Shown: positions 14,858 to 61,619 of the stretch, piece by piece
Position numbering within the stretch: the first letter of the stretch is position 1
Layout: every line of letters starts with the position of its first letter
NCBI GenBank assembly: GCA_905178155.1
Contig: CAJINV010000025.1
Span: 102,453 to 166,452 of the forward strand
Reading direction: 5' to 3'
DNA from: Amoebophrya sp. A120
Taxonomy: Eukaryota > Protista > Dinoflagellata
DNA length: 64,000 nucleotides
Program-made: the position numbers and the translations under genes
Notes under the pieces: model-generated
What the model saw: the letters and a program-made list of their open reading frames with translations, nothing else
The model's database searches: none
Told to the model about the DNA's origin: nothing

Positions 14858-17127
14858 ATGATGGACGGACCAGCAGATGATGGAGACAAAGAACACGAGC
14901 CCATTCAGGGCCCGGATTCCTCCACGGGCCCCATGAAGGACGGCCCGAGCCCCGATGACTTGGTAGAGACGCGAGAGCCAGGTACCAGCAAAGATGCACC
15001 AGCTTCAGCTTTATTCCGTCGTCCAAGAGAGCGTCCAAGAGAGCAGTCAGGGTTATTCCGTCGTCCAAGAGAGCAGCAGCACGACAGCAAGTCCTCCTAC
15101 GGCTCTGCCGGGAGCGCTGGACACCCGGACGGGGGGGCAGATTTAGTAAACGTAGCTACAGCGCCCGCGTCCTCCTCCATCAGCGAGCCGAAGAACCCGA
15201 ACGGGATGACTACCTCGACGGCGGTCAAGATTGCGAGCTCCATGACCACCGCGGCCGATGCCGGACTTGGTTCTCGGACTACAGGGACATCAAAACAAGA
15301 CCACGTGTCCGCACCTCCCCCCGCCCAGGATCCTGCGCCAACATCCGTGATCGCTCCTGCCGCAGCTTCCGCGTCAACTCTCGTCTCCTCGTCTTCCTCC
15401 GCACCTGACGCGGGCGCGGACCAACATCGCGGTGACGGGACTACTTCTCTGACGAAAAAGTTGCTGACCCTGATCTCTGAAGGCTATGCATTGCAAATAT
15501 GTCGGGCTCTGGATTTGTCATGCAAATTTGATGGCAGGCCATATTTATCTGTTTCTGTATAAGCACAACGAAATGCGGTTGAGCAACTTGCGCTTCTTTG
15601 TCGTACGGGAAACCAGGTTGGTGTCATGCGTTCTACGAATATGTGAATCTGCAATGAGCCACCCAGAATTTGTAATGCTGCTATGCCGTACAAGAGGCTA
15701 CTCTGCCATGCAAATGCAAGCTTCAACAACATAACTTTCCAGACCCAGACATGTTTGCAATACATATCCCCGTGCTCAACGAGGAGGAGCAACACGCGCT
15801 GGCACGAACGATCTCCGGCAAGATCGGTGCTGAAGAACCGGTGGGTTCACTCACCGAGGAGTTGAGGGAGCGGTGGAAGATGATGAATGCGTCCACCGCA
15901 AGAGGTGTGGCGGCTAATAAGGCCAAACTCCAGCAGGACGACTCCCCCGATGGACAGGTCGACGCGGTAGAATTTACGGAGCAACAACTTCTGCGCAGCA
16001 ACCAGGGGGGCCGCAAACTTGTTATGCAAGTGAGAAATCATCAATCGTAGTTGTGCCGACTTCGACTTCCTCTCTACCCCACCCGATTTCTGTATAATTC
16101 TTGTTGAAAGTAGACTAAGTATTTCGCAAAGAAACTACTGTACGCATAATTGATGAGGGTGTCAACGGTCATCTACCAACTGCCTGTGCCATCGGTGGGT
16201 CCATGCAGGTTTTTGCGGATGGGGTAAAGATAAAGTAGAGTTCAGTTGGCAACACAGTTTTTCCTCGGAATACTGAGAATCAACAAAGGAGTGCTCGGTG
16301 TTCAATTGCAGGCCACGGTTGGCGAAGGTGTGCTGGAGGATCAGATCTTCGACGCACTTGTGGGAACGCTGAAAAGTTCAGTCCAAGAGTGCCGCCAAAA
16401 GGGTGACGCAATGAAAGACGAACTGGAGAAAATGCAGGAAGCCCTCGATGATGCCCGCCAACAGAATGAGGAACGGCGCCAACAGGATGAGGAACAACGC
16501 CAACAGAATGAGGAACGTCTGAAAATTCAGGAAGAGAAAACCCGCGACCTAGAAGCGGGGAAAAAAAACACCGACAGGCAACTCAAAAACACCGAGAGGC
16601 AGCTTAAGGGGCTACAAGATGCGAAGAGGCAGGACCAGGAAAGAATCGCGCAGCTTGAGCAGGCGAAGGCTCATCAAGACAAGCGGACGGCCGCGCTTGA
16701 ACTTGCCGAGCAGCGGCGCACGGCGTTCGAGCACGCGCAGTACCAGCTCGGCGAGATTGCCAGCATGCTGGAGATTTTCTTCAAGGATCCGGAGTGGCAC
16801 GCGTGGGACGAAACCGTCGAGGACGCGGAAATTTTGCGGGAAATTAAAAGGGTCTTAGACGAAGTGCTTTCCAAGTGGAGCTTCGAGCAACATACGGTGG
16901 TGCGGGAGTTGGACAGACTGTGGCGAAAGATCCGGAAGCCGAGTAATCACTGGCGCATCGTCATGTGCTCCGAGGTGTTCGAACAGTGTTTGCTCGCGTA
17001 CGCGGTACATGTGGAAGCAGTCCGGGCGGCTAAGGGGGTGCTCAAACCGGAAACGAAAGGCGTGCTCCAAGTGGTTTTATCAACTGCAGAGATGTCTGTG
17101 CCGGGATCATTTCAATCATGTTTGTGA
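14858..17127 (+). CDS. hypothetical coiled-coil protein, 3 exons (introner ~15484-15770; GT-AG intron 16030-16245)
   Basis: Element+5 nt removal gives ..LISEG-VLNEEEQHALA..; CAA|GTGAGA..TTCAG|TTG joins in phase to the 16246 coiled-coil frame. Confidence 0.6.
15485..15766. mobile_element. introner family A, aged; target duplication decayed (aaggc/tcccc)
   Basis: tatgcattgcaaatatgtc...gacatgtttgcaatacata inverted ends. Confidence 0.8.
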
Positions 17128-17391
17128 AGATGCGCCTGTGCCTGACCATGGATCTTGAGACCCAACCTCGATGGCAATCTCGTATACCCAACCTCGATGG
17201 CAATCTCGTATACCCGACAGATTTTTGTACTATTGCTGCCACCGAGACCTAGGGGGCGAGGACTAAGTATTTGTATTTCGCATCACAACTTTGCTCATGA
17301 TTAAATTCCCGGACCCAGATCTATTTGCAATGCATAAGTACTTACTTCGTGGCGTAAGTGGCAAAAGGAGGTCGAGGAGTACGAGGAATCT

Positions 17392-18640: not shown

Positions 18641-19913
18641 CCGCTTTCTGTTCATTCACCTAAGGGGAGGACTTAGTCTCGAAGAAGTTGATATTGAAAG
18701 GAAGGCGCGGCTCGAGATCAGGTAAAAGTGAAGTTTTTGTCTTGCAAGCTAAAAAGAAGCGAGTGCGTGTGCGAGACATTGACAGACTGGTCAGAAGTGG
18801 TGCTATTTCTTGATTGATTGAAATCCGAAATAAAATTGAAAAAACAAAACAGTTTCCGTGCAGTATCCAAGGCATCGAAGGCTTGATTCGCAGTGGGGGG
18901 ACCATGAGTGAAGTTCTCTTGACGTCTCTTTCCGATGGTAATTTTACGAAGTTGAGATTCTACGTGCGCAGGGCATGTCATGCCGACGTGTAAAAAATTA
19001 ACAGTGTTTTTGAATTGGAATTCTACAACGTGTGAACTCTACTTGACAGTACAGCTACACGATTCGGCGTTTTCACCTGTTTACAGTTATCTGACAACAA
19101 ATAAAAGTACCAAGAAAACCACACTGACTGACTTTGATTGGTTTTTTGGCGATACAGCTATAAACTAAAAGCAAGAAAAAAAACACAAAACCAAATCATG
19201 ACGAATACCATACAAAGAAGACTCACGATCATAATCAAGATGAAGGGCACTAGAGCAAAAGAGACTGCGAAAAATCTAGAATCATACGATCCGCAACATT
19301 CAAATTTTATCTAATTTTGGTTTTCAGCCTTCTGTCCAATCGTTCTTACATCGCTTTTTTGACTCGCAGCAACGCGAAGCGCCTCGTGTGCGAGCAGTTT
19401 TTTTTTTGCGACTGAAAGGCTCAGTTCGAACAAGCTTTGTGCATCAGTCTCGTGTTCGACTCGCTTATCGGCTTCTCAGTGGTGCTCGTGCACATGAGAG
19501 AGAGATGATTCAAGCCGAACAACTTCACCAGGAGGCAACACGAGAAGAATGATGCTGCCGCGACGAGTGGACAAGGATGTAGCGCTTTCTGCTGAAGCCA
19601 GAATGCTCCAGAATGAGCATTCTGGTTTGCGGATATCAAGTGGTAGAAGAGTCTCTGGATATATCTGGATCTGCAATCCTTCTAGCGCTTTCTTCTGAGA
19701 CCAGAATGGGCATTCTGAGCGCGAGCCTGAATGCTTTTGATTAACAGTAGCGCTTGCTTTGATTCTGATTAGCAGGTGGAGCTTATATAATCGTCGCACC
19801 TTCCATCCTCGTCGTGGTCGTCCTCGCGTAAATACTTACTTGGAAAATTGTCCGGAAAGGATTGTCTTGTCTTCTTCTTGTCCGCGTGAAAAGCGTCGAC
19901 AACACGCTGACCA

Positions 19914-20749
19914 TATGGATTGCAAATATCCCTGGATGTCTCGAAGGATGGAACTTGCGATGCGTCCTGTGGATCTTCTCACAAAAATCTGTCTTGCGCG
20001 ATCACCAAAAGTCGTCCTTTTCTGACCACCATGCGAGGGAGTTCTTTCTCATGCAGGAAGGGCATGATACTACTTAGACACCTCCCAGAATCTGTCATAC
20101 TCGTTGTGGTGAGCATGCACCCTCGGGCACTTCGAGTTTGGTCTATGTCTCTTTATGTGAGCACCTATCAGTCAGCTACATCTCCTGCATGTAGACCCAT
20201 GCTTTTGTAGTTCCTGACTGCTAGGACCCCGTGTGGCTGTAGTCCTTGCCTTTTTTCTGTCCTGTTTTTAGTGGTTCTTTTACCACTTGCGCGCTTGCCT
20301 GCCTCATACTGCCCCGTTCGTTGCACTTCGCCTCGTCACAGATCACACGGAAGTCCTCGTCGATATTTTTAGTCTTACTTTTTTAGCCCCCAATGTACGT
20401 TCCTTCTACTCTCTGTTCGTATACTCTCTGCTCGTTGTCTCTCTATTCTTATTCTAATACTTTTCACTGCTTTATATTTGCATTTTGGAAGTGCGTCTGT
20501 GTTATATACATTAGAAGTGCGTTGGTGCGCCTTGCTTTTCTCCTGTGCACCATCAGAAGTGCACTGAATCGCGAGCGTATGCTATGCTATGCACTTTATG
20601 TCTTTAGGCCTAAGTGCCACCGGGACGTCCAGCCCGTAGCTCCTCGATGTCATGCTAGGTCCTGCATTCCAGACCTTATGAGGCATCGAAATTCTGCATG
20701 ACAAGTTTGGACTCTTCCAGGCATCCAGGGATTATATTTGCAATGGATA
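19914..20749. mobile_element. introner family A-like, TSD gacca/gacca, carrying a nested 549-bp insertion
   Basis: tatggattgcaaatatccctggatg...catccagggattatatttgcaatggata. Confidence 0.85.
20099..20647. mobile_element. unclassified insertion nested in introner, flanked by tgtcat direct repeat
   Basis: tgtcat at 20093-20098 and 20648-20653; family-A internal sequence resumes afterwards. Confidence 0.55.
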
Positions 20750-20797
20750 GACCATGCAGTACTGCGGGCTCTCCGGGAATTGGCCGAAAAAGACTGA

Positions 20798-21059
20798 TAT
20801 CAATTGTAAAAATATCTGGGTCTGGAAGGTTGGACCTTGTGATGCCAACTTTGGACTCTAAAAAAATCTGTATTGCATGACCAGCAGGAGGAGGCTAGTT
20901 TGTGCTACGCAGGGAGGGCATTTGTCATGCGGAGTAGGCATCAGGAAGCCCTCTAAAAATCTGCGATGCTAGGTTATGCATTACAGACATCCTGGGTGAT
21001 GCAAAATATGCATGACAAACCCGGAAACGTTCCAGACCCAGACATTTTTGCATTTGATA
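20798..21059. mobile_element. introner family A, TSD actga
   Basis: TIRs, perfect 5-bp duplication, frame restored. Confidence 0.92.
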
Positions 21060-21103
21060 ACTGAAAAAGACGGCGATTGGGCGACTGAAAACGACGGCAA
21101 TTG

Positions 21104-21382
21104 TATCCTGAGTAAAAACGTCCCCACACCAGAGTTGTAATGCAGATTTGCAAAGACAGGAAGACTTGTAATGCGCATCCCCATGACAGCCATCTCCAAT
21201 CGTGTTTTGGAATTTGTGATGCTGTGAACAGGATGAGCAGATGAATCTGTGACGCGGCTGCACTTGCTAACCTGCACTACACTGCAGAGTGCAACTTGTC
21301 ATGCGTGACTCACAAAACTCCTGGGTTTGTGTTGCAAAATCCCCACCCTGACTCTGGTGTGGGTACGTTTTTACTCAGGATA
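21104..21382. mobile_element. introner family B (aaaaacgtccccac), TSD aattg
   Basis: tatcctgagtaaaaacgt...acgtttttactcaggata. Confidence 0.92.
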
Positions 21383-21403
21383 AATTGGCATAGTACGCTG
21401 ACG

Positions 21404-21681
21404 TATGGATTGCAAAAGTGTCTGGGTCTAAAAGAGTGGAGCTTGTAATGCTGTCTGCGGATAATCATACTTCTAAAAGTAAAAATCTTTGTGTTGCATG
21501 AGCTGCAAGAGGAGACAGTTCTTGGCACGCGGAGAGGGCATTTCTCATGCGTAATTAGCATCAAGAAGCTGTAAAAAAATTATCTGTGATGCTAGCACTA
21601 GCATCACAGACCTCACGGGTCATACCAAATGTGCATGACAAGCCCCGACTCTTCCAGACCCACACACTTTTGCAGTTGATA
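21404..21681. mobile_element. introner family A, TSD tgacg
   Basis: TIRs, perfect duplication. Confidence 0.92.
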
Positions 21682-22132
21682 TGACGGGGAAGGGAGGCGC
21701 GAATTGGTGGTGGAACTGGAAAAAAGAACTCGACGAAGAAGCCCCGGTCCTACCGAAGGACTGGTTTTTCATCCCAAACAGCTGGGGATTCAACACCGCC
21801 AACGTTGCGGAGGGGGATGTGACAAAACCCGGGTTTAACTACGAAGCCGCCGGGTAACGAGCTCGTCCAGGTCGCTCCCCTGTGGATGGGCTGGAACGAG
21901 CCCGACATGTACGGCTTTTGCGTGAGCAACCCGGATGTCAAGCGGCAGTGGAAGGAGGATTGGGTACCCCCTGCAGAAGGCCAACCCCCTACGCAAGTCA
22001 ACTGCAAGGCTCCTTCCGGCCTCGGGTGGTGGAATGAGGATTTAGTAAACGACCCAACCTCGTACATGGCAGCGTGGAAACAAAACCTCAATGCTGCGAA
22101 AAACCTCGGGTACCAAACCACCTCCCCCATGA

Positions 22133-22456
22133 TATCGCGAGGAAAAAATTCCCCTCCCCATATTGAAAAGGTATGTTCCTAAAAATTTGTGATGCTGATT
22201 TGTGACCACGAATCCCGTCTCTCTTGCAAGACGGCAAATTGAAAGAATCCGCCGCCTTATGGCGGCGGTTTGTAATGCTGTTTCACCAACATGGCAGGCC
22301 TCTGCTATGCTAAGCGCCTACAACAAAACACGCCTACGCAGGCTGAGGCTTTGCCTGTAGTGCCTCACTGCAAGAAGACAGGGCTGATTTGTGTACGCAA
22401 TCCAGCAACAGAAGTTTCCGTTTCAATATGGGGAGGGGGGAGTTTTCACTTTGATA
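22133..22456. mobile_element. introner family D (aaaaatccccctccccatat), TSD catga
   Basis: TIRs, perfect duplication. Confidence 0.9.
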
Positions 22457-22786
22457 CATGATGGCGCTCCCTCTGGCTCGAGGCAAGAACGAGGGGGAGG
22501 CGCCGGGAATCGACGACAAACCAACTGGGCTACTTTGGGTGGTTGGGCCCGTTCTTGGACGCAGCGTGCAGCGCGGACTGGGATGCGTGCCCGGATTACA
22601 TCAACTTTCACTTCTACATATATGGGCTGCAACGCGGACACGAGCGGCTTGGAAGGGCGCATGGAGGACGTGAAGTTGCTGATGGAAAAGTACCCGACCA
22701 GCAAAGGGGCGATGCTCACCGAAACGGGAACTTTGCGTCTTCCTACGGACCCAAATAAACACAGCACTTGCGACGAAAAAACCCTG

Positions 22787-22825
22787 ATCGCCGGTATGGA
22801 AGCGATCTTCAAGGTGCTCAACGAT
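22787..22825 (+). repeat. array repeat copy 1 (GH128 exon sequence atcgccggtatggaagcgatcttcaaggtgctcaacgat)
   Basis: Core identical at 24174, 26440 and 28031. Confidence 0.95.
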
Positions 22826-22835
22826 TCCAAGGTGC

Positions 22836-22972: not shown

Positions 22973-23284
22973 GGTGACCGATGTGGGCGACATGAAGACG
23001 CTGACCGTGCCCGGGTACACCCGCGAGGCGGCGGCCAGGGAGGCGAAGCAGATCGCGAGCGCGCACCGGGTATGCACTGCAAAAGTATCGCACTCGTAGT
23101 AATTGCGTTTATGCATTACAAATCTCTTTCTCAAGGTGAACCAGCATTACAAATTTAAGTAATTTAATTTGTAATGCTGGGCTAGTTTGTAATGCAATTT
23201 ATACTAGTACGATCACGATGCTTTTGCATTGCATACCGGGGCGGTAGCTCCTGGAGTCAGTCGATCGCGAATATGAAGAAGTAA
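22973..23284 (+). pseudogene. 3' fragment of a diverged UBE2Q-like copy (cargo 1)
   Basis: VTDVGDMKTLTVPGYTREAAAREAKQIASAHRG..SQSIANMKK* matches 30613-30753; downstream DNA to 24173 matches ~30755-31450 with indels. Confidence 0.9.
23071..23235. mobile_element. introner short family S (tgcaaaagtatcgYactcgta), TSD ccggg; empty site at 30705-30709
   Basis: Filled/empty comparison between paralogous copies. Confidence 0.95.
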
Positions 23285-23700
23285 AAAACGCGGTTCGACA
23301 AGAACCTCTCGATTTGAAGGTCGTATTGAAAATGAAACAGCAACAGTCACGAATTCAAGTGACAAGAGCATCAGAAATTACTCCTCCACCACCTAAAAAA
23401 GCAACATTTCGTTTTATCTTTACGTTTACCACTCCAAGAGCAGCAAATAGCAAGCAGAAGCAAGAGCAGCAAGCTAGCAGCTCCAGAAATGACGCAACGA
23501 CTCAATCGAAACTAGTGAAAACTGGTTTATTATATAAGATTTCCACATCGACAAATCACTTCCTCTCTGCTCACGTGTAGAGACAATTGACAACAAGCTT
23601 AAGTAACTCCCATTTGTTGAAAACGTTTACATCACAGCACTGTTCTACTTAACAAACCCCCTTCGAGCAGCAGGTAGGATGAACAAAACCAACTGTTACT

Positions 23701-23953
23701 TATGGATTGCAAAAATGTCTGGGTCGGGAAGGTTGGAACTTGTAATGCTAGCTTTCCATACCTAGAAAATCTGTATTGCATAACCAACAAAAGTCGCAGC
23801 CTCTTTTGTCATGCAAAAACGCAGTTTCTCATGCGGATTGCCTATGAGAAAGCGTTTTGGGAAGTTGTCATGCCGGACTGCATTCGGAAGTGTCTTCATC
23901 ATGCACATTTTAGCATCACAAATTTCCAGACCCAGACATTTTTACATTTGATA
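23701..23953. mobile_element. family A element in non-coding DNA, TSD ttact; empty site at 31221-31225
   Basis: Filled/empty comparison. Confidence 0.93.
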
Positions 23954-24173
23954 TTACTCTGATCGCAGCGACTCACTCCCTATTCTCAAACTCAATCTTA
24001 TCCGCAATAAAGCAGGCAGATTTCGGTTTTCTACTGTGGATGAAAACCATCTTCACACAGTTTCACTTCCCGGATTATACTAGTATTCGAAGTAGATGTC
24101 TGACTTTGAACGGCCCAGTCTCGCCCCAGACTGGCTCTACAACTACTTCGTCGGCTGGTAAGGCGCAAAAAAA

Positions 24174-24215
24174 ATCGCCGGTATGGAAGCGATCTTCAAG
24201 GTGCTCAACGATCCG
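24174..24215 (+). repeat. array repeat copy 2
   Basis: 42-bp match. Confidence 0.95.
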
Positions 24216-24427
24216 GAGGTGGAGCAGAAGAGGCTGAGGAGGAGAAACCGGCAGGATCCTGCGTACCAGCAAGTCCAATTGGACGACCCGACGGTGATTG
24301 GGAGACCGGAGTTTGATGATATACTGTAAAGGAAGGGCGCCAACATCTTCCTCTTCAATTTGAAGGAGCCACGAGTCAAGAACAACACGACGACAAACGA
24401 CATGATCATCTGAAGAGGTGAAATACG

Positions 24428-24715
24428 TATCCTAAGGAAAAACGTCCCCATCCCAGAGTCAAGTTGGTAGATCTGCAACACAAATCTCCAAGTTTTGGGA
24501 TTTGTGCATGACAAGTTTCCATCTGCAGTGTAGTGGTGGTCAGTAAGGAAAGCCGCATGAGAGAGCCATTTTCTCATCCTGTTGACAGCATTACAAATGC
24601 CCAAAATAAACGGTTGGGAACAATGCCTCTCATGGAGATCCGCATTACAGATCGATTCCTGTCATTGCACATTTGCATTTACAACTCTGGCGTCGGGACG
24701 TTTTTACATAGGATG
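24428..24715. mobile_element. family B element in cargo 2, duplication decayed
   Basis: tatcctaaggaaaaacgtccc...gggacgtttttacataggatg. Confidence 0.8.
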
Positions 24716-25522
24716 CGTCGTCTACCGGTATTTATCCTCCTTGGCAAGGCTGGGCGAGGAGTACGATTTATTTCTGTAGCGCCGGGCAAAATAGAGTCTG
24801 TTTTTTTTCGAAGAAGATCAGAAAGTGCCCCCTCTGGCAAGTTGCGGAAGGTGCATCAAGGGTCTATCAGTAGATAAAAAGCCGCTTCTGCGCTGTGGAA
24901 GTATGCCAGCTGTACTTACACAGAAGCCGAATGATCGTCCGCGCGCTTATGAATACGAGAGTCACGCTCACGTTCCGAGGGCGCACTATACGATTTTTTT
25001 TTTTTTGTGCTAGTTTTTGCTTTAGCTTGAGTTGGTTTCTGATTTTGCTTTTGTCTTTTGTTCGCTGTGCGCTTTGCACAAATAAGGGCGAGAGACGCGA
25101 AAAAATAGCAGCAGGGGCAGAGTGATGGTTTCGTGAAAAACGACAGAGTTGTTGAGTGAAACTTATCTGAAAAACGTAGCTTAACCCAGCAGGTTTCCTC
25201 GATGACAAAAAGTTGATCCAGTGCTTCGTCAATCGTCGGCCATATAACTCGATGCCCAACTTCGACAGTAGATATTGTGCAACAGTATTGTCATGCTCAT
25301 GGTGTTGAGTAGCGCTACTTAGTATCTTATGCGTCCACGCCGATCACTGCATTGGTAGTTCTCCTCCCCTTTAGTAAATTTTTTTTGTACTACTCTAACT
25401 TCCTCGAGAGAAAATTGATTCTTTGTTCTAGTGAATACTTCACTCTAGAAGTTTTGCTGTTACTTATTCGAAAGATGAGGAAACGACTCTGACCCAGATC
25501 CACGACGATCAGATCTGCCGAC

Positions 25523-29738: not shown

Positions 29739-30753
29739 ATGGCGAGCAAGCGCGGGGCATCCAAGGATCACGCGACGACCACCGAGTCGGAGGCAGTGGT
29801 GCCGGTTAAGAAGCAAAAGACGAACGACACCGCCGATGGTGCGCCGGCGAAGGAGGAACAGTCCACAGCCCTCGCCCCCAAGAGGGTCTTCGATCTGCCC
29901 TGGTGGGGCCGCATCAACACCGACAACAAGCCGCAGAAGTTTGTGTCGCGCATGATGGGGGAGGCGAAGAAGATCTTCATCCTGAAGGAGCATGACCCGG
30001 AGCAGAAGATGCTGATATTCGACGAACCCGTGTTGCCCGACCTGTCCCGGTGGACGTTTCTCTACAAAACCGAGTCGATCGACAAAGACAGCAAACTGCA
30101 CAAGCAGCTGAAGTCGCACAACCTCGCTGGGGTCCGGTTTGAGATCAATGTGCCGGACGAGTTTCCGATGATGCCCCCCAACCTGCGCGTCGTCCACCCG
30201 AAGCTGTCCGGCAGCTATGTGTTCTCTGGCGGCGCGATCTGCTTCGAGGCGTTGACCCCGAAGGGCTGGGTGATCACCATGACGCTGGCCTCGCTGGCCG
30301 TGGCGGTGGTGGCCTTGCTGGCGGACTCGGACCTGCCCGTATCAAATGCAAATATGTCTGGGTCTGGAAGAGCTGGAACTTGTGATGCAAACTCTGGAAC
30401 ACACAAAAACTTGTGTTGCATGAGCGCCAAAAGCTGTCCATTTCTTGGTACGCAAGTAGGAAGTTTCTCATGCGGGACAGGCATCATGAGGCGTGCTCAA
30501 GACCTGTGATGCTTTTGCCTGCATCAGACGCCATTTGCGTGATCCGAAATATGCATGACAAATCTCGCAATCTTCCAGACCCAGACGTTTTTACATTTGA
30601 TACCCCGCGCAAGTGACCGATGTGGGCGACATGAAGACGCTGACCGTGCCCGGGTACACCCGCGAGGCTGCGGCCAGGGAGGCAAAACAAATCGCGAGCG
30701 CGCACCGGGGCGGCAGTTCGTGGAGTCAGTCGATCGCGAATATGAAGAAGTAA
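29739..30753 (+). CDS. ubiquitin-conjugating enzyme E2, UBE2Q-like; 2 exons
   Basis: VPDEFPMMPPNLRVVHPKLSGSYVFSGGAICFEALTPKGW; spliced tail GYTREAA..HRGGSSW resembles the UBE2Q C-terminus. Confidence 0.88.
30340..30602. mobile_element. introner family A, TSD gcccg/ccccg
   Basis: TIRs; removal gives LPAQVTD. Confidence 0.92.
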
Positions 30754-49812: not shown

Positions 49813-52158
49813 ATGTTGTTCAACAGCAAAAACGATCGTCGGATGAACGACGAGTGGGGCTTCCGTGTATGCACTGCAAATATGTCTTGGTCTGGATTTG
49901 TCATGCGAGAATAGAAGGGCAACAAAATCTGTAATGCATGAATGCGATCATTGGCCACTTGAATCGCCATTGCTATATCGTGCTGGAAGGCGGTCTCCTG
50001 TCATGCGAAATACGGCAGATTCGGATTCCGCAAGAAGGACCTAACATGCAAGACTCAGCATGGCAAATTGTGTGCTTTGATCCAGATTTAGACACATTTG
50101 CATTTGATACCGCAAGCACTTCGACCACCGCGACCAACAAATGAAAGCGCACGAACTCAACGCGGGCATGTTCTCTGCGGACGGACACCACAACCCGGTG
50201 ATCCAGCGCTCGGGGACCGGGCGCAACGCGGAGCTCCGCGGGCAGTACCAGGTACAGGCCAACGCGATGCAGGCCCGGCTGATGGACAAACTGGCGGACA
50301 GACGGGCCGAGATGCACCGGATACCGTATGGAGTTCTCAAATGTTACATTCTCAACTGTTACATGAATTTGTATATGCAAGACTGGCAAAAGTGAAAGGA
50401 GGAAGATTGCGCCCTTTGCATTACAAGTTTGGCGCAGATTTAGATGCTGTCTAGCCCACCTTCCGCAATTTGTCTTGCGAAGCAGCTCGATCATCTGCCG
50501 GCTTAAGGAACTTTTGCATGACAAATTCATGTAACAGTTGAGAAGGTAACGTTTGAGAACGCCATATACCGCAGGTAAACCCTTCCGCCGTCGAAAAGAT
50601 GCGGGTGCTGCACACCCTCGGGATCTATCACTACATGAACAGCTTCGGGTTGTGCTGCTGCTTGTGCTACTTTTCGCCCTTCACCTGCATGATGGGCATG
50701 CTGGTCCGGCAGATCAACCAGTATGAGGATTTTGACGTGATCAAGCACCGGGTCCGGTCCGCGCTGCTCTTTTCGAAGATCGTGCTTGTTGTGTGCGTAT
50801 CCCGTGCAAAAGTATCGTACTCGTAGTATTTGCAATCATGCATTACAAACCTTTTTCTTAAGGTAAATCCGCATTACAAATTTTATTTCTCATGCTGAGG
50901 AAGTTTGTCATGCACATGCTCATGCATTTACACGAGTGCGATACTTTTGCAGTTCATAGTGCGTGTTCGGCATGCTGCCCACGGGGGTCTTTGTTTGTCT
51001 CGCCGCCATCGGCCTGTGGACGGACCGGGGCAACTTCGCGACGAACGTCACCCTGTGGTGGTGGGACGGCCCGATGAAGGGCGCCGGCTTTTCGAGCGAA
51101 AACTCCTGGTTTGTCGCTTTCGCGCTTTTTTCGTTTCTCTCGTTCCTGGTGGCGATCTACGCCGTATACGTTGCTGCGGGCATACACACGAACCTAAAAT
51201 GGCTGTCCGAAAACATAGACCTGCTCCAGGCCGCGGAGGAGATGGCGCCTTGGTTCATATCAAATGCAAAAATGTCTGGGTCTGGAAGAACGCAACTTGT
51301 CATGCTAAATCTGGAATCCAAAAAAGTCTGTATTGCATGAGCAGCAAAGGGAGTGTAATCTTTCCTACGCGGAGAGGGCATTTGTCATGCGGAATAGGCA
51401 CCAAGAAGCCTTCAAAAAATCTGTGATGCTAGGGCATGCATCACAGACATCAGGGCTCAGGCACGACGTGCATGACAAATCTCAGAATCATCCAGACCCA
51501 GACATTTTTGCAATCCATAGTTCATGGGCGACGACTACTGGGGCGACGACCCCACGGGGATCTACGCTTATGACCCCTGGACGGGGCCCCCGAGAGACTC
51601 GAAGGACGATCCCTGGGCGGCGCACCACGTACGCATTGCAAATATCGATGTCTGGGTGGAGTCTGGAATAAACTTGTTTTCTTGCTAGTGTGTGAGGACA
51701 CCTGCATAATTTTTATACAGACTGGCTGCTTGTTGTACGGCATAACAACAGCATGCGAAGTTGTTTTCCTCAGCTGCTTGCGGATTCATTTTCATTGTCG
51801 TTCGCATGTAGCATTACAAACTCAGTATCATAGCACAAAACTGACCAATCGTATTTATGGTTATGCATCACAAATCCTTGTTGTCCTCGAAGTTCCGCAT
51901 CACAAATCCGCACTCAGACAACATATTTGCAATGCATACCACGAGCTGGATGATCACGATGACCACGAGTGGGGTGTCGACGTCACAGCGGATATAAACG
52001 CGGCCGTTCGACAGGCGCAAGAGGAGCACAACTTTCGTGGCGACGAAAAATTGGAAATAAAGATGCGCGTTAGGGAAGACTGGATAGAAGCGAAAGGAGG
52101 TAAGGATTTAACACCGACTTGGTTGGACGACTGCTTACTGTTTACTTTAGTTAGTTAA
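49813..52158 (+). CDS. unknown multi-pass membrane protein, 6 exons
   Basis: Five introners remove in frame; Cys-rich LCCCLCYFSPF and hydrophobic segments; acidic/Trp-rich tail. Confidence 0.75.
49868..50109. mobile_element. introner family A-like, TSD ccgtg/ccgca
   Basis: TIRs, frame restored. Confidence 0.85.
50327..50566. mobile_element. introner family F (tatggagttctcaaatgttac, ~45-bp TIR), TSD taccg
   Basis: TIRs, perfect duplication. Confidence 0.92.
50798..50958. mobile_element. introner family S, TSD gtgcg
   Basis: TIRs, perfect duplication. Confidence 0.92.
51258..51519. mobile_element. introner family A, TSD gttca
   Basis: TIRs, perfect duplication. Confidence 0.93.
51630..51938. 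mobile_element. aged introner family A-like, TSD ccacg
   Basis: tacgcattgcaaatat...atatttgcaatgcata. Confidence 0.88.
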
Positions 52159-52379: not shown

Positions 52380-54632
52380 ATGTTCAGTGTAAGTGCAAAA
52401 ACTACGAACAATTTTGTTATCGCAGGCGCCTCCTATGTGGATAATTTTCGTGACGAAGCGAAAGGTCAGCTGGCCGCCGGTGGCGGTTTTAGCGGCACCG
52501 GTGGTAAATTTGAGGGTATCATGGAGAAGGGCCGGGGCAAAAACGCCGCGATGCAGGAAAAAGGCCAGTTTGCGAGGGGTAAGAACTACGCGGGACAGGA
52601 GAAGTATGGGAGTGTCAGAATTGAAATCGACAAAGTTGAAATAACTTGTAATGCATAAAATCGATACCAGTTGGAAGCCCAATTTCTAAGCGGTGCATGA
52701 GAAATTTCGGCACCGTCTAAATCCAGTTTGTCATGCTGTTTCGGGACAAAAGGCGTCTCTTGTCATGCTACTTTAGCAGCTCTATCACAGACCCCAAACA
52801 GGCTGCCAGTCGGCCTCACTTGCCATCCCTGCAAGAGAGGCACTTCATGCCTTACAGTTCATGCATGAGAAATTATTTCAACTTTGTCGATTTCAATCCT
52901 GACACTTCCATAAGAAGGGCGCGGACGCTCGGGCGAAGCAAAGCCAGATGAACAAAGAGATGGCGCTATCCTCTGCAAAAACGTGCCCACCCCAGAGTCA
53001 AGTTGGGAATCTAGCAACACAAATCTCGAAGTTTTAGGAGCTGTGCATGACAAGTTTTCCTCTTTCGTCTAGTGCTGGTTGGCATTGGAATCCGCATGAG
53101 GAAGCCATTGTCTCATCTCGTTTACAGCATTACAAAGTCCAAAACGCGAAGATTGGAAATGCCTCTCATGGAACTGCGCAATACAAATGTTCCTATCATA
53201 TTAATCATTGTGCCTTTGCATGGCAACTCTGTGGTGGGGACGTTTTTGCACAGGATAGGCGCCCGCGGGCGGCAAGCAGGCCGCTATGAAGGCGCAGAGC
53301 CAGGAGGGCTTAGCAAAGGGCAAGGCGATGCAGGACGTGGCCAGAACGGAGGGCGGGGGCCGCAACAAAGCCATGAACCAACAGATGGACAAACAGAACG
53401 CAATACGCAACGCAAATAAAAATTGGAAGCTCTGTAGGTCAGGAAGTGAAGCTCGTTTGTCATGTAGTTAGGTGAACAAGCACACGCAGCACACCGATAT
53501 GCTCCTGGATTGCACACAGAAGCATCACAGATTTTGCAAAAGCTTCGTACCTGATGCCTATTCCGCAGTATGAGAAGTAGGTCGATCTTTGTAGCGAGAA
53601 GACGAACTACGCAAGAACTACTTATTCTTGGCGTCCAGGTTGTGACTACATCACAGATTTTCATCCTTCGATCCAGAGGACGTAGCATGAATAAGCTGCA
53701 GGAGTTCTTCGCTTCGTTCTTCCAGACCCTCAGGCAACAACATATTTTCGATGCATACACAAAGGGCAAGCAGAAGGCGGGGCAGAAAGAGCAGGCGGCG
53801 CAATATCGAAATGAAAAATCCCCCTCCCCATATCAAAACGGAAATTTGTGATGCTGATTTGTGGTCACAAATCATCTTTGTCTTGTAGATAGGATCATGG
53901 GAGCCATTTGACGCATTCCAGAGCAAGTCTGTCATGCGCTTTCGACTACTGCAAGCCTGTTTGTCATGCGCAATTGCTAGCTTTCTGCATATCCAAACAG
54001 GCTGAGAAAATGCCGCCAAGCACTTTCTGCAAGACAGATCTGATTTGTGTACGCAAATCCAGCATCAGAAACTTCGTTTCGATATGAAGAGGGGGGATTT
54101 TTCCTCTCAATACGCAAGGGAAATACGCCGAAAACAACGCCTACAACGAGAACCTGGGCTGGGACAAAGCCGGAGGCTTGGATATGGGCAGCGGGGTATC
54201 CTATGTAAAAACGTCCCCACCCCAGAGCTGTTATGCGAATGCACAATGAGGACAGGAGTATCTGTAATGCGCATCTCCATGAGAGGCATTTCCAATCGTG
54301 TTTCGGCACTTGTATTTGTAATGCTGTAAACAGCATGAGAAATAAATGTCTTTCTCATGCGACTTCTCTTGCTAACCAGCACAACGCTGCAGATGGAAAC
54401 TTGTAATGCACAACTCCAAAAACTTGGGGATTTGTGTTGCAGACTTACCAACTTGACTATGGGGTGGGGACGTTTTTGCTCAGCATACGGGGCCTGGGCC
54501 GCCGGCGTAGACAGTACCATGGCCCAGCGGGGCGTCGATAAAGGTGCCTACGGAGATCCGCAGAGGGCCGCGCTGTGGGGCAAGGCACAGCCTGCTTACT
54601 ACGGGAAGTCGCAGTTTTCCGACGGATACTGA
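52380..54632 (+). CDS. hydrophilic G/K/Q/A-rich protein with ~14-aa repeats, 6 exons
   Basis: Five introners remove in frame to TGA 54630-54632; start codon uncertain. Confidence 0.72.
52605..52912. mobile_element. introner family C (opposite orientation to 33360), TSD agaag
   Basis: TIRs, perfect duplication. Confidence 0.92.
52967..53257. mobile_element. introner family B, TSD ggcgc
   Basis: TIRs, perfect duplication. Confidence 0.92.
53404..53757. mobile_element. aged introner, TSD cgcaa/cacaa
   Basis: Weak TIRs, frame restored (NAKGKQK). Confidence 0.72.
53804..54112. mobile_element. introner family D, TSD cgcaa
   Basis: TIRs, perfect duplication. Confidence 0.92.
54197..54487. mobile_element. 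introner family B (opposite orientation to 38132), TSD cgggg
   Basis: TIRs, perfect duplication. Confidence 0.92.
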
Positions 54633-55736: not shown

Positions 55737-58700
55737 ATGATGAAGACAGCGGGCGAGAAGAAGCAGCAGCAGCAGGCCTACCGCATCTACTTCCTTCGCC
55801 ATGCGGAGAGCGCCAATAATGCGCGGGCGGAGGGCGAGACAAGGAACTGCGACCCCGGACTGACGGCTCTGGGAGAGCAGCAGCAGGAGGCCCTCGCCCG
55901 CGCTTTGCTGCAGAATAATGTAGAAGTCAGATCTGGCAGTGGCAGTGGTGCCGTGAAGGAGCAGTCGACGGGTTTGTTCCCCTTCTCCCGCATTCTCGTG
56001 TCGCCCATGACGCGGACGCTCCGGACCTATCAAATGCAAATATGTCTGGGTCTGATAGAAGTTTGCTGCAACTTGTGATGCGGATTCTAGAATAGGCAGA
56101 AAGAAAGACTTGTATTGCAGGGGGGCCAAAAGCTGCCCGTTTCTTGCTACTTACGCACATAGAGACTTTCTCATGCAGGACAGGCATCTTCAGGAAGCCT
56201 GCGCAAAACCTGTAATGCTTCTGCATGTTGCACTAGAGAGAGAGACCAGTTATCTGTGACCGAAAAGATGCATGACAAACTCCTGAACCTGCAGCACCCA
56301 TCCAGCCCCAGACATTTTTGCAATGCATAGAACCGCGAGCAGCCTGATCCGCCACACTGTCGAACACGCAGGCGGGCCTGAAGAACCCTATGACGTTAAT
56401 AATTTCCATTTCCTTTCCCGAGAAGGCAGTATAGTATAGTAACAATAGGCGTGGGCCTGCGGGCCTAAATTCCGGTGGGTTGGTCGGTCGGTTGGTTGGT
56501 TTTGGACAGACGACATGTGACCGAACCCGCTGCATTGTGTTTTGTGTTTTTCTGAGATTCATCCACTACTACTGTTGAAACTACCTACCTACCCACCTAC
56601 CTGGCGTCCTTTCCTATGCATTGTAGTACCGTGATCGCACCGACCCACCTACCTACCTATCCCTTTCCACCCAGAGACAGCTGGTCACGCCTACCGGCCT
56701 ACCCACCCACCAGCCTGGTTGGTGGGTGGGGCGAGGGAGCGTGCGCTGCCTATTGGCCACGCCTACCGACCTACCCACCCACCTCGCTGGTGGGTGGGTG
56801 GGGCCGGCGAGGGAGTGCGCGCTGCCTATTGGCCACACCTACCGACCTACCCACCCACCTTGCTGGTGGGTGGGTGGGGCCGGCGAGGGAGTGCGCGCTG
56901 CCTATTGGCCACACCTACCGACCTACCCACCCACCTTGCTGGTGGGTGGGTGGGGCCGGCGAGGGAGTGCGCGCTGCCTATTGGCCACACCTACCGAAGC
57001 TGAAGATGAAGACACTGATCAGCATGACAATGATGGGGGGGGGGGGGGCCTCGCGGCCGTGTCTCTAATTCCTCGCGCTAGTCCCTGGCCCTAATCCCTA
57101 TCTCTATAGAGTGATTATCTCTAATAATTCCCGATCTCCCGCTCTCCCTTTCATCTTTCTTATCCTGAATATCTCTAGATATCTATATCTGATCCCTGTC
57201 GCCCGGATCCTCGGCTCCGAGGATCCCTGCTTTCGGCCGACGCGAAAACAGGGATCCTGAGCTCCGAGGATCCCTGTTTTCGGCTGACGCGAAAACAGGG
57301 ATCCAACCGCCACCATCAGGTCGGAGGATCCCTGTTGTTGTGGGCGCGAAAACAGGGATCCTCGTGCGTGATGTTTAGGACAGACAGATTCTCGGTGGGT
57401 ATGACTCTAAGTGTTTATGCGTGACAAACTTCATCTTCATTACGCGGCTTTTTATGCATGACAAAATCAAACAAGAAGCATACTCATGCATGACAAATTC
57501 AACCACGCGTGACGCTTGCGCATGACAGATTCAATATTGTCTGTGGAGATCACGCACAGTAATAGAAATGTCGGCAGAGGTCTTGCTTGGGATATTGTCG
57601 GCGCCGGGCCTCGACGACGCGCCCGAGCGCTTCGTTGATTGTGTCCGCGTTTCGAATATCGAAGCAGGCGGACTTCGCGTCGATCGCAATCTGCGGATTC
57701 AAACGGAGATACACGCAGAGCCGCCACCCAAAGTACGCGTCTAGGATCATCCGCTCCCAGTAGTCCAAATCCCACGACACCTCCTCGGGCTCGTATTGCA
57801 GCCCGAGCTTTTTCAGTTCCTCCTTCTTCATGAACTCCCTAATGCTGGCCGCCCCAAGTTTTGTTTTTGTTGCGATTCCGCACTGTGTTATGCAACGCAA
57901 AAATATCGCGCTCGTGGCTGTGGAAACGCAAGCGCGAAGAGGAAGAAAGGGCACGTGAGAAGGCATAGGGGGACGCCGGCCTTGTCACGTGTTTCTTTTC
58001 TCCAAGCTTGCCAGCCGCCCTGCGGAATATTTTTGCATGGCGTACGCATGTCCGCATGCAGTTGGTACAAATAATCCACGCGCACACCCTTATGGCTGTT
58101 AACCAGCCAGACAGCCGGACCGGGGGAGCCTTCGCCGGGGTCTTTTTTACTTTTGTTTCCACTGGGGTCGAGGAGCACGCGCTCGGGGACGCAAACGTGC
58201 GTCCCTGAATCGTTTACGCAGTAGTTCGGATAGACGTACGTCCTGCATTTCTTGTCGTTGCATCTCCGCAAGACAATTTCGAAGTTCTCCACACCGCGCG
58301 CGCCCCATGCTTCTACTTTTACTGCCTTGTCCCGCACGTGCGTGGCGCCTCCACACAAGGGGCACACGACGCCTCCCTCCTCGGGTTCTTTCTTTGGCCG
58401 CCCGCGCCGCCGCGTCCTTCCCGCCTCTTGTTCCATTTTTTTTGCGAATTTACTTGACCGCGCACTCGACCACGAAAGACCTCTACGAAATTCTTACAAA
58501 ATAAGGCGGAGCTGCTGAATTCTGACTATAGGAACTGCTGGGGTCGCTGCTGTTTGAAAAAAATACTTTTTTGGTTGCTGGCGTTATTCTGGTAGAAAGG
58601 GAAATGGGTGGGTGGATTGGAATTGATCTCAGCCTCCGCGCGGGGAATTTTGGTGTGGGTAGCTAGGCTTCGTGGGGACGCCTTTTTTCTCGTGTAGCTC

Positions 58701-60724
58701 GTAATGCTGCAGCGGTAGTGCGAGTAGCGCAGTGTCGCTTTTCGTTGTTGGAAGAAAACTGCGATGCGGGTGAGCGTAACGCGGGCTTTTTATCTCGATC
58801 TTTTTTTCGAAGATTTCTTCTCGCCCATTGATGGCGTGTAGATGCTGAGGCGTTCTTCCTTTTTTGCGCGATGTAAGTGCAGGCCCTTCTTTACGAGCAC
58901 TACTTCTACCTACCCCGGCTACCTACCTGCCTACCTACTTTCCCACCGACCCTCCTACCTCTCCTTTCCTTCCGCGCCTCCCCGCGGCTGGTGTTCTGGT
59001 TGCAAACCTGTGGGCATGGCTGTAGACCTGCCGCGCGGGGGCAATTTTTTTTGCTGACCCGACCGGCCGGAGGGGTCGGTAGTGACCCGGACCGCCCTAC
59101 CAGCCAGACTCGCGCTGGCGCAGCGTCTCGATGGGCGTACCTTCTAAACCGCCACCCCGGCCCGGCGGCCCGGTTAGGAAGTGCGCAGCTAGCTGTGCGG
59201 ACTTTGCACCACAGAACGAGTCCAGGTAGACTCGTTCCTGTGCGGCCTTTATCAGCATTACAAACTGCGTTTCGGGTGCACTTTGGAATGCGGATTTTAG
59301 AACACAGAACGAGTTCAGGTGGACTCGTTCCTGTGCGGCCTCTAGCAGCATTACAAACTGCGTTTCGGGTGCGCTTTGTGATGCGGATTTTTGGAGCACA
59401 GAACGAGTCCAGGTGGACTCGTTCCTTTCCATTTCCTTTCCCGAGAAGGCAGTATAGTATAGTAAGTAAGTATCCACCGTCTGGAGGTGTCTGCAGTGTC
59501 TGTTGTGCAGCTCATGGTGCGGCAGTAATCACTACTTCTGCACCGTACTATATTGACTCAAAAACTCTGTTCCTGTTGGCATTGGCTGTTGGCTACAAAT
59601 TGAAAAAGTGAGCATGAAAAGATTTTTGCTGGACGTGGACCTGGAAATGGAATCTGTTCAACCTCATACATCCCCGCTGGCACCGACGACCGTGGAGCCG
59701 CTATTGTGCGAAGAGGGTGGTATATGAGAGTGCACAACTACTCGTCTTGCTCCCTCTCATTTGTATTTTTGCATGAACAGCAATACAAATGACACCACCG
59801 CACCTGGAGCCTCTGCATGGCAAATTCAACATGGGCCTAGTGTAGTACTGTTTGGGCTTCCGGAATCTGTCATGCAAACAGCGCCAAAAGGCAGCAGCTG
59901 GATTTGGCGTTTTGCATGACAAAGGAAAGGAAGGGGTAGTAGTTGTGTACTTTCATAGGGCATTTTCGAGGGTGACCGCAGCCTCTCCGCGGCGGAGCGG
60001 CAGATGCAGTTCGAGAACGAGGGGGGTGTAGTCGGCGGCAGTGCGGCTAGTACAACCGTCAAACGTGGGCTCAGCAAGGAGGAAATGGTAAATGTCGTGT
60101 TTGGGGAGACTGTATCACAAGAAGAAGTGTTAACGTTAAACGGAATTTGTGATGCACTAATGCATCACAAAACGTGCCCAAGTTTGTCATGCATAACATG
60201 CATACCAGGCAAAAATTATCATGCATTTTTGCAATCTATGAAAACCGTTAACGTTAGCACTTTTTTGTTTGACAGACTGCTCCCGCCTCTTCGTCTTGGT
60301 CTTGGAATCCACTGCTGAATCACGCCTTTCTCGCGGAGCACATGTGGATATGACAGCGCACAACTCGCCCTCATTTGTATAGCATGAATGGCAATACAAG
60401 CATCAGCAAGAGTGCCGGTTTTGCATGACAAATTTGCACTGGAGTGTAGTGCTATTTGGGCTGCCAGAACTTGTCATGCAAACAGTGCCAAGAGGCAAAG
60501 GGTGGGTTGGGTATTTTGCATGACAAATGAGGGGGAGGGGGAGTTGTGCACTGTCATAGTGGAGTCGCACTGGCATCACCTTGCTGACCGCACCAGACGC
60601 CGCACGACTGTCGGTCCGCTTTTACCGGAATGAATTCGACGACGCGTCTGGTACAGGAATAAAAACTAGCGATGATGCCGACGGGCCGCCTGGGTGGTGG
60701 GTTGGAGGCCGCGAGAGCCCGGAC
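55737..60724 (+). CDS. histidine phosphatase / phosphoglycerate mutase-like protein; C-terminal part missing in this assembly
   Basis: IYFLRHAESANN, DPGLTALGEQQ, VSPMTRTLRTA, LCEEGGIF, GLSKEEM, GWWVGGRES after splicing five introners; no second-His (xHG) motif found. Confidence 0.78.
56028..56329. mobile_element. introner family A, TSD ggacc/gaacc
   Basis: TIRs; restores RTLRTA. Confidence 0.9.
56403..56442 (+). repeat. 40-bp direct repeat, copy 1 (copy 2 at 59426-59465)
   Basis: tttccatttcctttcccgagaaggcagtatagtatagtaa identical at both sites. Confidence 0.95.
56685..56997. repeat. 76-bp minisatellite, ~4 copies, each with an internal hairpin
   Basis: cctattggcc at 56749, 56825, 56901, 56977; acccacccacc-loop-ggtgggtgggt. 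Confidence 0.92.
57219..57364. repeat. three hairpin units ggatccctg...aaaacagggatcc
   Basis: Read directly. Confidence 0.85.
57550..58436 (-). pseudogene. frameshifted ORF with AT-hook and Cys cluster resembling the CxC5 domain of KDZ transposons
   Basis: RRRGRPKK; CPLC..RCNDKKCRTYVYPNY..VNSH; second frame ends ..MILDAYFGWRL; resemblance judged by eye only. Confidence 0.45.
59208..59425. repeat. 93-94 bp tandem repeat (~2.3 copies) with gaacgagtcc..ggactcgttc palindrome
   Basis: acagaacgag at 59211, 59304, 59398. Confidence 0.88.
59723..59957. mobile_element. introner family H (tatgaSagYgcacaact), TSD tggta/gggca
   Basis: TIRs; restores EEGGIFEG. Confidence 0.85.
60113..60274. mobile_element. 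introner family G (gtgttaacgttaa), TSD gactg
   Basis: TIRs, perfect duplication. Confidence 0.88.
60349..60558. mobile_element. introner family H, TSD gtgga
   Basis: TIRs, perfect duplication. Confidence 0.92.

Positions 60725-61588: not shown

Positions 61589-61619
<31 letters not shown>

What the first reader, a model, noticed from the sequence alone, without database searches (positions are those of the whole stretch)
15480..59962. Fixed splice register: intron = element + 5 nt, probably 1 nt before and 4 nt after the TA ends, independent of duplication sequence
Seen: the frame is restored by removing element+5 nt even when the duplication has decayed (aaggc/tcccc at 15485, aaccc/catcc at 56389, caacg/catca at 40439). 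Two sites constrain the cut. At 38504 the conserved GRYAV needs base 5 from the right copy. At 37062 any cut before base 4 gives TGA and a cut at 4 gives the expected Leu. With this register, 41 hand-counted introns start GT 17, AT 14, CT 8, TT 2, while 3' dinucleotides are arbitrary (AG at 34035 and 41046). Inference: the element supplies +2T/+3A of a donor, and the acceptor is measured from the TIR stem rather than read as AG.
Basis: inference. Interest (0 to 1): 0.8.

Follow-up and report, generated by a model that had tools for sequence, protein, structure and literature searches.

The report
Transposon introns cut at one register
In the marine parasite Amoebophrya, small transposon copies inside genes are missing from transcript assemblies together with exactly five extra bases, every readable cut fits one position (one base before the element, four after it) without the usual GT-AG signals, and they are likely removed by an altered spliceosome that reads only a U-A at the start and counts bases at the end.

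Summary
The register is confirmed; the mechanism is inferred. The window is Amoebophrya sp. A120, and the inserts are its published TAT…ATA introner elements (PMC7789003), whose splice position that paper calls variable and unknown. I curated 46 elements with 5-bp target duplications. Transcript contigs (one sample) lack element+5 nt at 16 of 35 elements in the stretches laid, including a 3,285-nt one. Eight junctions with mismatched duplications all allow a cut after base 4, and only that cut fits all eight (p=0.002; 0.022 for any common cut). In 191 oriented elements (46 here, 145 from a metagenome) +2T and +3A never change, while their hairpin partners change 14 times, so the donor signal is strand-specific. 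3' ends take any dinucleotide. That the acceptor is measured from the stem is not shown: one natural insertion and dispensable terminal pairs point rather to an A at -7, which has 2 exceptions. One contig boundary (36453) does not fit. The scan has noted this rule before on other pieces of this genome. It is a new variant of a known kind that makes an open splicing question testable.

The parts
37061..37335 (+). Intron in register (element 37062-37331, copies ACTTT/TCTGA); fixes the cut at exactly 4; 1-nt insertion between deep stem and 3' end
   Evidence: record 4: piece restarts at 37336, 434 nt removed = 159+275; DNA-type contig of X5 runs through it unspliced; P0001 has Leu
40438..40696 (+). 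Intron (element 40439-40692, CAACG/CATCA); cut 3 or 4
   Evidence: record 5: piece ends 40436, 418 nt removed = 259+159; X5 contig unspliced
59722..59961 (+). Intron (element 59723-59957, TGGTA/GGGCA); cut 4 or later
   Evidence: 59721>59962, skips 240, both 2, 4 of 4 runs
56388..59672 (+). 3,285-nt intron (element 56389-59668, AACCC/CATCC); cut 3-5; a 257-nt element carrying a 3,023-nt passenger
   Evidence: 56386>59672 in 4 of 4 runs
45937..46223 (+). Intron (element 45938-46219, TGCCT/CGGCT); cut 3-5
   Evidence: skips 287, both 2, 3 of 4 runs
46944..47210 (+). Intron (element 46945-47206); cut 1-5
   Evidence: skips 267, 4 of 4 runs
56027..56333 (+). Intron (element 56028-56329); cut 2-5
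   Evidence: skips 307, 4 of 4 runs
60112..60278 (+). Intron (element 60113-60274, perfect duplication, 3' end ACA)
   Evidence: skips 167
60348..60562 (+). Intron (element 60349-60558, perfect duplication)
   Evidence: skips 215
30339..30606 (+). Intron (element 30340-30602) in a ubiquitin-conjugating-enzyme-like gene; cut 1 or later
   Evidence: record 1 ends at 30335; Pfam UQ_con
33359..34961 (+). Five introns: elements 33360-33669, 33796-33947, 34035-34313 (ends AG), 34405-34549, 34634-34957
   Evidence: record 3: 1,235 nt removed = sum of element+5; one 486-aa frame
36182..36449 (+). Intron (element 36183-36445, perfect duplication); X1 contig piece restarts at 36453, not at the expected 36446: unexplained
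   Evidence: record 4; P0001 follows element+5; alternatives
36856..37014 (+). Intron (element 36857-37010)
   Evidence: record 4, by sum with 37062
38131..38773 (+). Two introns: elements 38132-38410 and 38504-38769 (TCGGC/TCGGT; cut at most 4 by protein)
   Evidence: P0001 has Tyr here, inside Pfam GBBH-like_N; RNA junction at 38504 not displayed
41045..41203 (+). Intron (element 41046-41199; ends AG)
   Evidence: record 5, piece restarts at 41200
15484..15770 (+). Predicted intron (element 15485-15766, AAGGC/TCCCC, 4 mismatches)
19913..22460 (+). Five predicted introns: elements 19914-20749, 20798-21059, 21104-21382, 21404-21681, 22133-22456
   Evidence: perfect duplications; four lie in one stop-free frame; no RNA laid
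23070..24719 (+). Three elements in duplicated gene or UTR fragments: 23071-23235, 23701-23953, 24428-24715; splicing not tested
42697..44351 (+). Five predicted introns: 42698-42954, 42990-43254, 43407-43667, 43736-44051, 44095-44347
   Evidence: one stop-free frame across all five; junctions not displayed
49867..51942 (+). Five predicted introns: 49868-50109 (CCGTG/CCGCA, would fix cut exactly), 50327-50566, 50798-50958, 51258-51519, 51630-51938
   Evidence: frame; no joint listed
52604..54491 (+). Five predicted introns: 52605-52912, 52967-53257, 53404-53757, 53804-54112, 54197-54487
   Evidence: frame; no joint listed
7310..7522 (+).
62668..62983 (+).
57885..58045 (-). Nested element (57889-58044) interrupting the minus-strand ORF of the passenger; removing element+5 gives one 241-aa frame
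   Evidence: no RNA cover

Best explanation
These are Amoebophrya A120 TAT…ATA introner elements that are missing from transcript contigs together with exactly five extra bases, with one cut position fitting all readable junctions (intron = last base of the left 5-bp duplication + element + first four bases of the right copy), and they are likely excised by a modified major spliceosome. Shown: the length rule, the register, invariant +2T/+3A on the donor side only, free +1 and free 3' dinucleotide, both element orientations present. Inferred: the elements are non-autonomous DNA transposons; the terminal inverted repeats bring the ends together in place of the usual end-definition factors; U+2 and A+3 are read as in an ordinary donor; the G+1/G-1 and A-2/branch-A contacts are both relaxed; and the 3' cut is counted from a fixed point at the end of the 3' inverted repeat, most likely the A at -7 acting as branch nucleotide. 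Because both ends are the same inverted repeat, any insertion in either orientation at any 5-mer restores the mRNA exactly.
For: RNA: (16 elements at element+5; 8 informative junctions intersect only at cut 4). Model at cut 4 equals annotated protein P0001 letter for letter. +2/+3 changes 0 of 191 against 14 at the paired positions -5/-6 (p=6e-5); the rest of the TIR diverges symmetrically, 285 against 275. Farhat Table S4: all 9 commonest A120 non-canonical classes are NT-NN and all 9 A25 classes TT-NN. Phase 0 excess in this register: 23/4/15 here, 78/36/31 in loci. Donor stays at the terminal NTA when the deep stem is shifted (L037, L134, weakly oriented L085 and L141) or duplicated without TAT (56389). 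-7A kept in 189 of 191; at 37062 the cut stays 7 nt after it despite a 1-nt stem shift. In yeast, U+2 pairs with U6 A51 while G+1 pairs with G-1 and A-2 with the branch A (10.1101/212811, passages), so losing G+1 and AG together while keeping U+2 is coherent. U2, U4, U5, U6 and 83 of 89 proteins reported in A120.
Against: No lariat or spliceosome evidence was obtainable. -7A is G in L138 (clearly oriented, conserved enzyme gene) and C in L124; its excess conservation over -5/-6 is not significant (p=0.06). U1 was not detected in A120. +2 to +4 are predicted paired (mean probability 0.72-0.77) and would have to be opened. One contig boundary (36453) fits neither register nor length as displayed. 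RNA is contigs of one sample labelled RNA by guess; contigs drop minor isoforms. The lower bound (cut at least 4) and the upper bound each rest on two RNA junctions. One weakly oriented locus (L139, margin 0.6) would carry changes at +2 and +3 if its orientation call is right.
Confidence: 0.42

Rival explanations
1. Same register and same spliceosomal donor reading, but the 3' cut is set by the geometry of the TIR hairpin itself, with the branch point elsewhere or variable.
For: Hairpin predicted in the 44 short elements; -7A has two exceptions; spacer indels seen four times on the donor side and once on the acceptor side; Euglena offers a genetically tested precedent for stem-measured ends (PMC12501133).
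Against: The two outermost pairs are broken 14 times on the 3' side without loss of frame; at 37062 the deep stem is shifted by one base and the cut is not.
Confidence: 0.27
2. A non-spliceosomal or Euglena-like activity recognises the hairpin and excises it at fixed offsets, releasing linear or circular introns.
For: No G+1 or AG requirement; U1 undetected; euglenid introns with stems at fixed offsets are excised as circles by unknown machinery (PMC11282704 section 6).
Against: The only strand-specific invariant bases are U+2 and A+3, which are canonical donor positions; phase 0 excess; nearly complete spliceosome and 35% GT-AG introns in the same genome; no CAG/CTG motif.
Confidence: 0.15
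3. Only the net length (element+5) is fixed; the cut slides within the duplication from intron to intron or molecule to molecule, as the 2021 paper drew it.
For: 29 of 46 sites cannot be resolved; only one RNA junction fixes the cut exactly; the 36453 boundary; contigs hide minor isoforms; PMC7789003 Fig. 3 and Fig. S23 legends report variable positions.
Confidence: 0.1
4. The introns are read by a minor (U12-type) spliceosome or a derivative, which tolerates varied end dinucleotides and picks the 3' end by distance.
For: 5 of 46 introns start RTATCCT and 11 of 46 NTATCC in this register (read), like the U12 donor consensus (recalled, not from a call).
Against: The main family starts TATCAA/TATGCA/TATGAA; +6 and +7 are not conserved; U11, U12, U4atac, U6atac not found in A120.
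Confidence: 0.04

Closest known systems
Introner elements / non-canonical introns of Amoebophrya sp. A120 (Farhat et al. 2021, PMC7789003; read: abstract, sections 10-12, 16, 32, 36, supplement passages incl. Table S4 rows; figures not seen)
   Same: Same organism (P0001), TAT-starting inverted repeats with an A-run, short direct repeats, hairpin, RNA-supported non-GT-AG introns.
   Different: The paper reports direct repeats of 3-5 nt, splice sites variable relative to the hairpin, borders unknown and no clear dinucleotide signature. Here: a 5-nt duplication, one register (N-TAT…ATA-NNNN), a strand-specific +2T/+3A signal.
TIR/TSD introners of Micromonas, Aureococcus, Symbiodinium, Polarella (PMC9860276 and 10.1101/2020.10.14.339549, passages read)
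   Same: Insertion plus splicing is length-neutral; part of a donor can come from the last TSD base plus the first element base (Polarella class 12, 5-nt TSD); both orientations in some classes; phase bias.
   Different: In the passages read those recruit G-starting donors and AG acceptors, which limits usable target sites. Here neither G+1 nor AG is needed.
Euglena nonconventional introns (5'-N3CDG…CH'GN5-6|R; PMC12501133, abstract and passages; PMC11282704 section 6)
   Same: No conserved end dinucleotides; terminal stem at a fixed, unequal distance from the two cuts; direct repeats hide the register; 3' spacer tolerates +1.
   Different: Different motif and offsets (1 and 4 against 3 and 5-6); in Euglena the key motif is needed on both arms, here the two invariant bases matter on the donor arm only; euglenid introns leave as circles, product here unknown.
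Fritillaria borealis non-GT/AG introns (PMC13326754 passages; PMC11282704 section 6)
   Same: Transposon-derived non-canonical introns in bulk, handled by an altered major spliceosome.
   Different: Fritillaria keeps preferred ends (AG-AC, AG-AT) and an intact U1; A120 has free 3' ends and no detected U1.

Membership tests
Amoebophrya A120 introner elements | Inverted repeat starting TAT, then less conserved bases and a run of A | tested here: met
   (five family consensi)
Amoebophrya A120 introner elements | Direct repeat of 3-5 nt at the borders | tested here: met
   5 nt; 29 of 46 perfect in window, 167 of 202 in loci, where the finder itself required 3-4 matches
Amoebophrya A120 introner elements | Removed from RNA without GT-AG | tested here: met
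   none of 46 is GT-AG in register
Amoebophrya A120 introner elements | Host organism | tested here: met
   100% identical protein named Amoebophrya sp. A120 by its source; model equals it
TIR/TSD introners (MITE-derived) | TIR, fixed-length TSD, dispersed copies, length-neutral splicing | tested here: met
TIR/TSD introners (MITE-derived) | Canonical-type donor (G+1) and AG acceptor carried or recruited | tested here: not met
   GT 18 of 46 and 45 of 145; AG 2 of 46 and 12 of 145
TIR/TSD introners (MITE-derived) | Cognate autonomous transposase | tested here: inconclusive
   ORFs of the 3.3-kb element: no Pfam hit above cut-off, no homologue; no genome to search
U2-type spliceosomal intron | U at +2, purine at +3 | tested here: met
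   191 of 191 oriented elements
U2-type spliceosomal intron | G at +1 and terminal AG | tested here: not met
U2-type spliceosomal intron | Branch-point adenosine | tested here: inconclusive
   -7A in 189 of 191, p=0.06 against neighbours
U2-type spliceosomal intron | Lariat intermediate and snRNP dependence | not testable with these tools
   only contigs mapped; raw runs X9, X10 laid 14 and 1 reads
Euglenid nonconventional intron | CAG/CTG (CDG/CH'G) motif at +4 and -8 | tested here: not met
   logos
Euglenid nonconventional intron | Terminal stem at fixed offsets from both cuts | tested here: met
Euglenid nonconventional intron | Purine at first base of downstream exon | tested here: inconclusive
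   32 of 46 and 89 of 146 against 54% purine in coding sequence; confounded by phase 0 excess
Euglenid nonconventional intron | Excision as full-length circles | not testable with these tools
   no reads
U12-type intron | Extended RTATCCT donor (consensus recalled) | tested here: not met
   5 of 46

The most novel reading that the evidence does not exclude
Amoebophrya A120 runs a spliceosome that has dropped both G+1 and the terminal AG and splices tens of thousands of introns by the code N-U-A … A-(N6), read from transposon ends. Any copy of these transposons, in either orientation, at any site and up to kilobases long, then becomes a perfect intron. Its strain A25 relative keeps the same +2U/+3A core in unrelated elements.
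Probability: 0.4. Interest if true: 0.82.

Novelty: new variant of a known kind. Interest (0 to 1): 0.6.

Why it matters
About 65% of A120 introns were published as non-canonical with no readable splice signal and unknown borders. One register turns that into a defined code: donor N-U-A, free 3' dinucleotide, fixed distance from the element end. It allows correct re-annotation of junctions, names the exact bases to mutate or to look for in lariats, and bears on whether the spliceosome's G+1/AG docking can be given up wholesale. It would also explain why these transposons can fill coding exons without target-site limits.

Tried and rejected
Including DNA-type run X5 crowded the true joints out of the joint table, so evidence comes from piece coordinates. 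No joint was listed for the ten elements of the genes at 49.8-52.1 kb and 52.3-54.6 kb, so the exact site 49868 is untested; this blank says nothing on expression. No annotated protein was found for the 15485 gene (lengths 114-364 only). The idea that the 3.3-kb element is an autonomous (KDZ-like, recalled motif resemblance) transposon found no support; the Atlas gave no answer. A strictly invariant -7A was rejected (L138, L124). A C-rich/A-poor last exon base seen in the window was not repeated in the loci, where G is commonest. Fewer mismatches at duplication position 5 in the loci (1 of 27, p=0.019) were not seen in the window (6 of 33; pooled p=0.067). The apparent element 60725-60981 with no duplication was dropped before counting because RNA contigs show its two flanks belong to different loci. 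Frame tests alone cannot separate +2, +5 and +8. Rows dropped in the loci: 247 calls, 239 after merging duplicates, 202 after a strand-symmetric TIR filter, 145 with an orientation margin of at least 3. The finder recovered only 35 of the 46 curated window elements, missing decayed ones. Huff et al. 2016 could not be fetched.
Full report
What the window is. A eukaryotic, gene-dense stretch whose genes are interrupted by 145-335-nt elements (two longer: 836 and 3,280 nt) with inverted ends TAT…ATA. A protein search with one exon returned a single, 100% identical protein that its source names Amoebophrya sp. A120. The elements match the introner elements of Farhat et al. 2021 (PMC7789003, sections read). 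[quoted passage not shown]

Catalogue. The duplication is 5 nt: 85% of positions match against 24-37% for other lengths; 29 of 46 are perfect. Removing element+5 gives long open frames across all introns of each gene; +3, +4, +6, +7 break them, but +2 and +8 do not, so frame alone fixes only the remainder mod 3. The 5' counts differ slightly: GT 17, AT 13, CT 7, TT 5.

RNA test of length. Two lays covered 35 of the 46 elements. In one search (four contig sets of one sample, RNA by the tool's guess) all 7 listed joints skip exactly element+5: 287, 267, 307, 3,285, 240, 167, 215 nt. In one search three X1 contigs lack 1,235, 434 and 418 nt, the exact sums for 5, 2 and 2 elements. DNA-type contigs of X5 run unspliced through 37062 and 40439, so the gap is not a DNA polymorphism there; one search had no DNA control. 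Decayed duplications (2-3 mismatches) are removed at the same length. The other 19 elements were not bridged or not displayed.

RNA test of register. Allowed cuts (bases kept from the left copy): 30340 1-5, 46945 1-5, 56028 2-5, 45938 3-5, 56389 3-5, 59723 4 or more, 40439 3-4, 37062 exactly 4. The only common value is 4. The gene model at cut 4 equals the annotated protein P0001 letter for letter, including Leu at 37062 and Tyr at 38504; the annotation is probably RNA-guided and so not independent. Against: the X1 piece after the 36183 element starts at 36453, whereas 8 other displayed boundaries at elements fit the left-shifted prediction and this one should be 36446. In-frame readings are an acceptor 3 nt further or a 3-nt shift of both cuts; an alignment quirk is also possible, and P0001 follows the rule there. 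Unresolved.

What is read. A metagenome scan with an internal TIR motif gave 161 loci of the same families (none shares over 30% of its 31-mers with the window). After filtering, 145 elements were oriented with a coding model (leave-one-gene-out check: 32 of 35 right at this margin). With the window's 46: +2T and +3A never change (0 of 191), while their pairing partners -5A and -6T change 8 and 6 times (14 of 14 on the 3' side, p=6e-5; 13 of 13 without one element in a gene fragment). The rest of the TIR diverges equally on both sides (285 against 275, about 7% per base). A transposase would act on both ends alike, so this asymmetry points to a splicing signal (inference). One barely oriented locus (L139) and one end without partner (L082) could be exceptions. 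+1 is free (45 G, 44 A, 29 T, 27 C) and all 16 3' dinucleotides occur (AG 12 of 145). Farhat's Table S4 agrees without saying so: all nine commonest A120 classes have T second, and all nine A25 classes are TT-NN, where the repeats start TTA. Both internal orientations occur in four families; the largest family could not be scored. Phase 0 is in excess in this register (101/40/46 pooled).

How the 3' end is set. Not by AG. The outer two pairs are dispensable. At 37062 an extra base lies between deep stem and end, and the cut stays 7 nt after the terminal A. -7A is the best kept terminal 3' base (189 of 191) but is G in L138, a clearly oriented enzyme gene, and C in L124; its excess over -5/-6 has p=0.06. 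The donor also follows the terminal NTA rather than the deep stem: shifts of +3, -1 and two weaker cases in loci, and at 56389 a second copy of the inner TIR without TAT is ignored.

Mechanism. Shown: length, register, donor asymmetry, free ends. Inferred: a modified major spliceosome. In yeast U+2 pairs with U6 A51, G+1 with G-1, and A-2 with the branch A (10.1101/212811), so keeping U+2 while losing G+1 and AG together needs one kind of change, at 3' site docking. If branching occurs and both orientations work, the branch base should lie in the TIR, and -7A is the best candidate. I put about 0.88 on the register, 0.42 on this full mechanism, 0.27 on a hairpin ruler, 0.15 on non-spliceosomal excision.

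Known and new. The element class is published. Works like: TIR/TSD introners (length-neutral, donor part-built from the TSD) and Euglena nonconventional introns (stem at fixed offsets, PMC12501133). It is a member of neither the GT/AG-recruiting introners nor the euglenid class by their motifs. Searches for a printed register (and passages of PMC12130899, PMC11282704, PMC12005148) found none; subscription papers and the unseen supplement figures could hold one. Earlier notes of this scan on other pieces of this genome reach the same register, and one proposes the -7A; I had both readings from my own calls before seeing them (notes) and do not count them as support.

Verdict. Observation confirmed; interpretation partly supported; new variant of a known kind; interest 0.6.

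Noticed in passing
window 60725-60981: Element with unrelated flanks and no duplication. RNA contigs stop matching at 60724 (4 of 4 runs; loose end listed for 2) and others enter at 60982 from foreign sequence (4 of 4): the window joins two loci across similar element copies (misassembly or recombination). The histidine-phosphatase-like gene starting at 55737 continues elsewhere.
   Followed up: partly
window 56403-59465: A 3,023-nt passenger bounded by a perfect 40-nt direct repeat (56403-56442 = 59426-59465) sits in a 257-nt element; it has tandem hairpin repeats and a minus-strand 241-aa ORF (58436-57553, basic N-terminus, Cys cluster) with its own nested TAT…ATA element. No family or homologue found; its end at 56441-56475 occurs in other transcript contigs.
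   Followed up: partly
window about 45525-45858: Probable canonical GT-AG intron with AGGTAC repeated at both ends, in the same RING-finger gene as seven non-canonical introns; exon restart at 45857 seen in contigs, donor inferred.
   Followed up: partly
window 36453: Transcript contig boundary 7 nt past the expected one after the 36183 element; possible alternative acceptor 3 nt downstream.
   Followed up: partly
window 22771-24212, 26440-26479, 28031-28061: Duplicated fragments: copies (84-96%) of the 3' end and UTR of the 29739 gene, two of them with elements (23071, 23701) absent from the parent copy, so later insertions; and a 31-40-nt exon piece repeated four times.
   Followed up: partly
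window 1-4100: About 235 copies of a 16-nt T-rich tandem repeat at the window start.
   Followed up: no
elements throughout: A short internal motif (CATGACAAA/CATCACAAA/CATTACAAA and reverse) recurs many times inside all families; possible transposase or RNA-protein binding site. Seen by eye, not counted.
   Followed up: no
pooled elements, intron -16/-17: The U-tract of the 3' TIR deviates less (0 and 1) than the matching A-tract at the donor side (3 and 5) in 177 elements; post hoc, each p above 0.2.
   Followed up: partly
window 61521-61733: An N at 61521, a TAC microsatellite and an orphan right half of an element: probable assembly gap.
   Followed up: no
L001-L161: The same element families fill genes in one public metagenome assembly (contig prefix JACKZZ01), with mostly perfect duplications.
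   Followed up: yes
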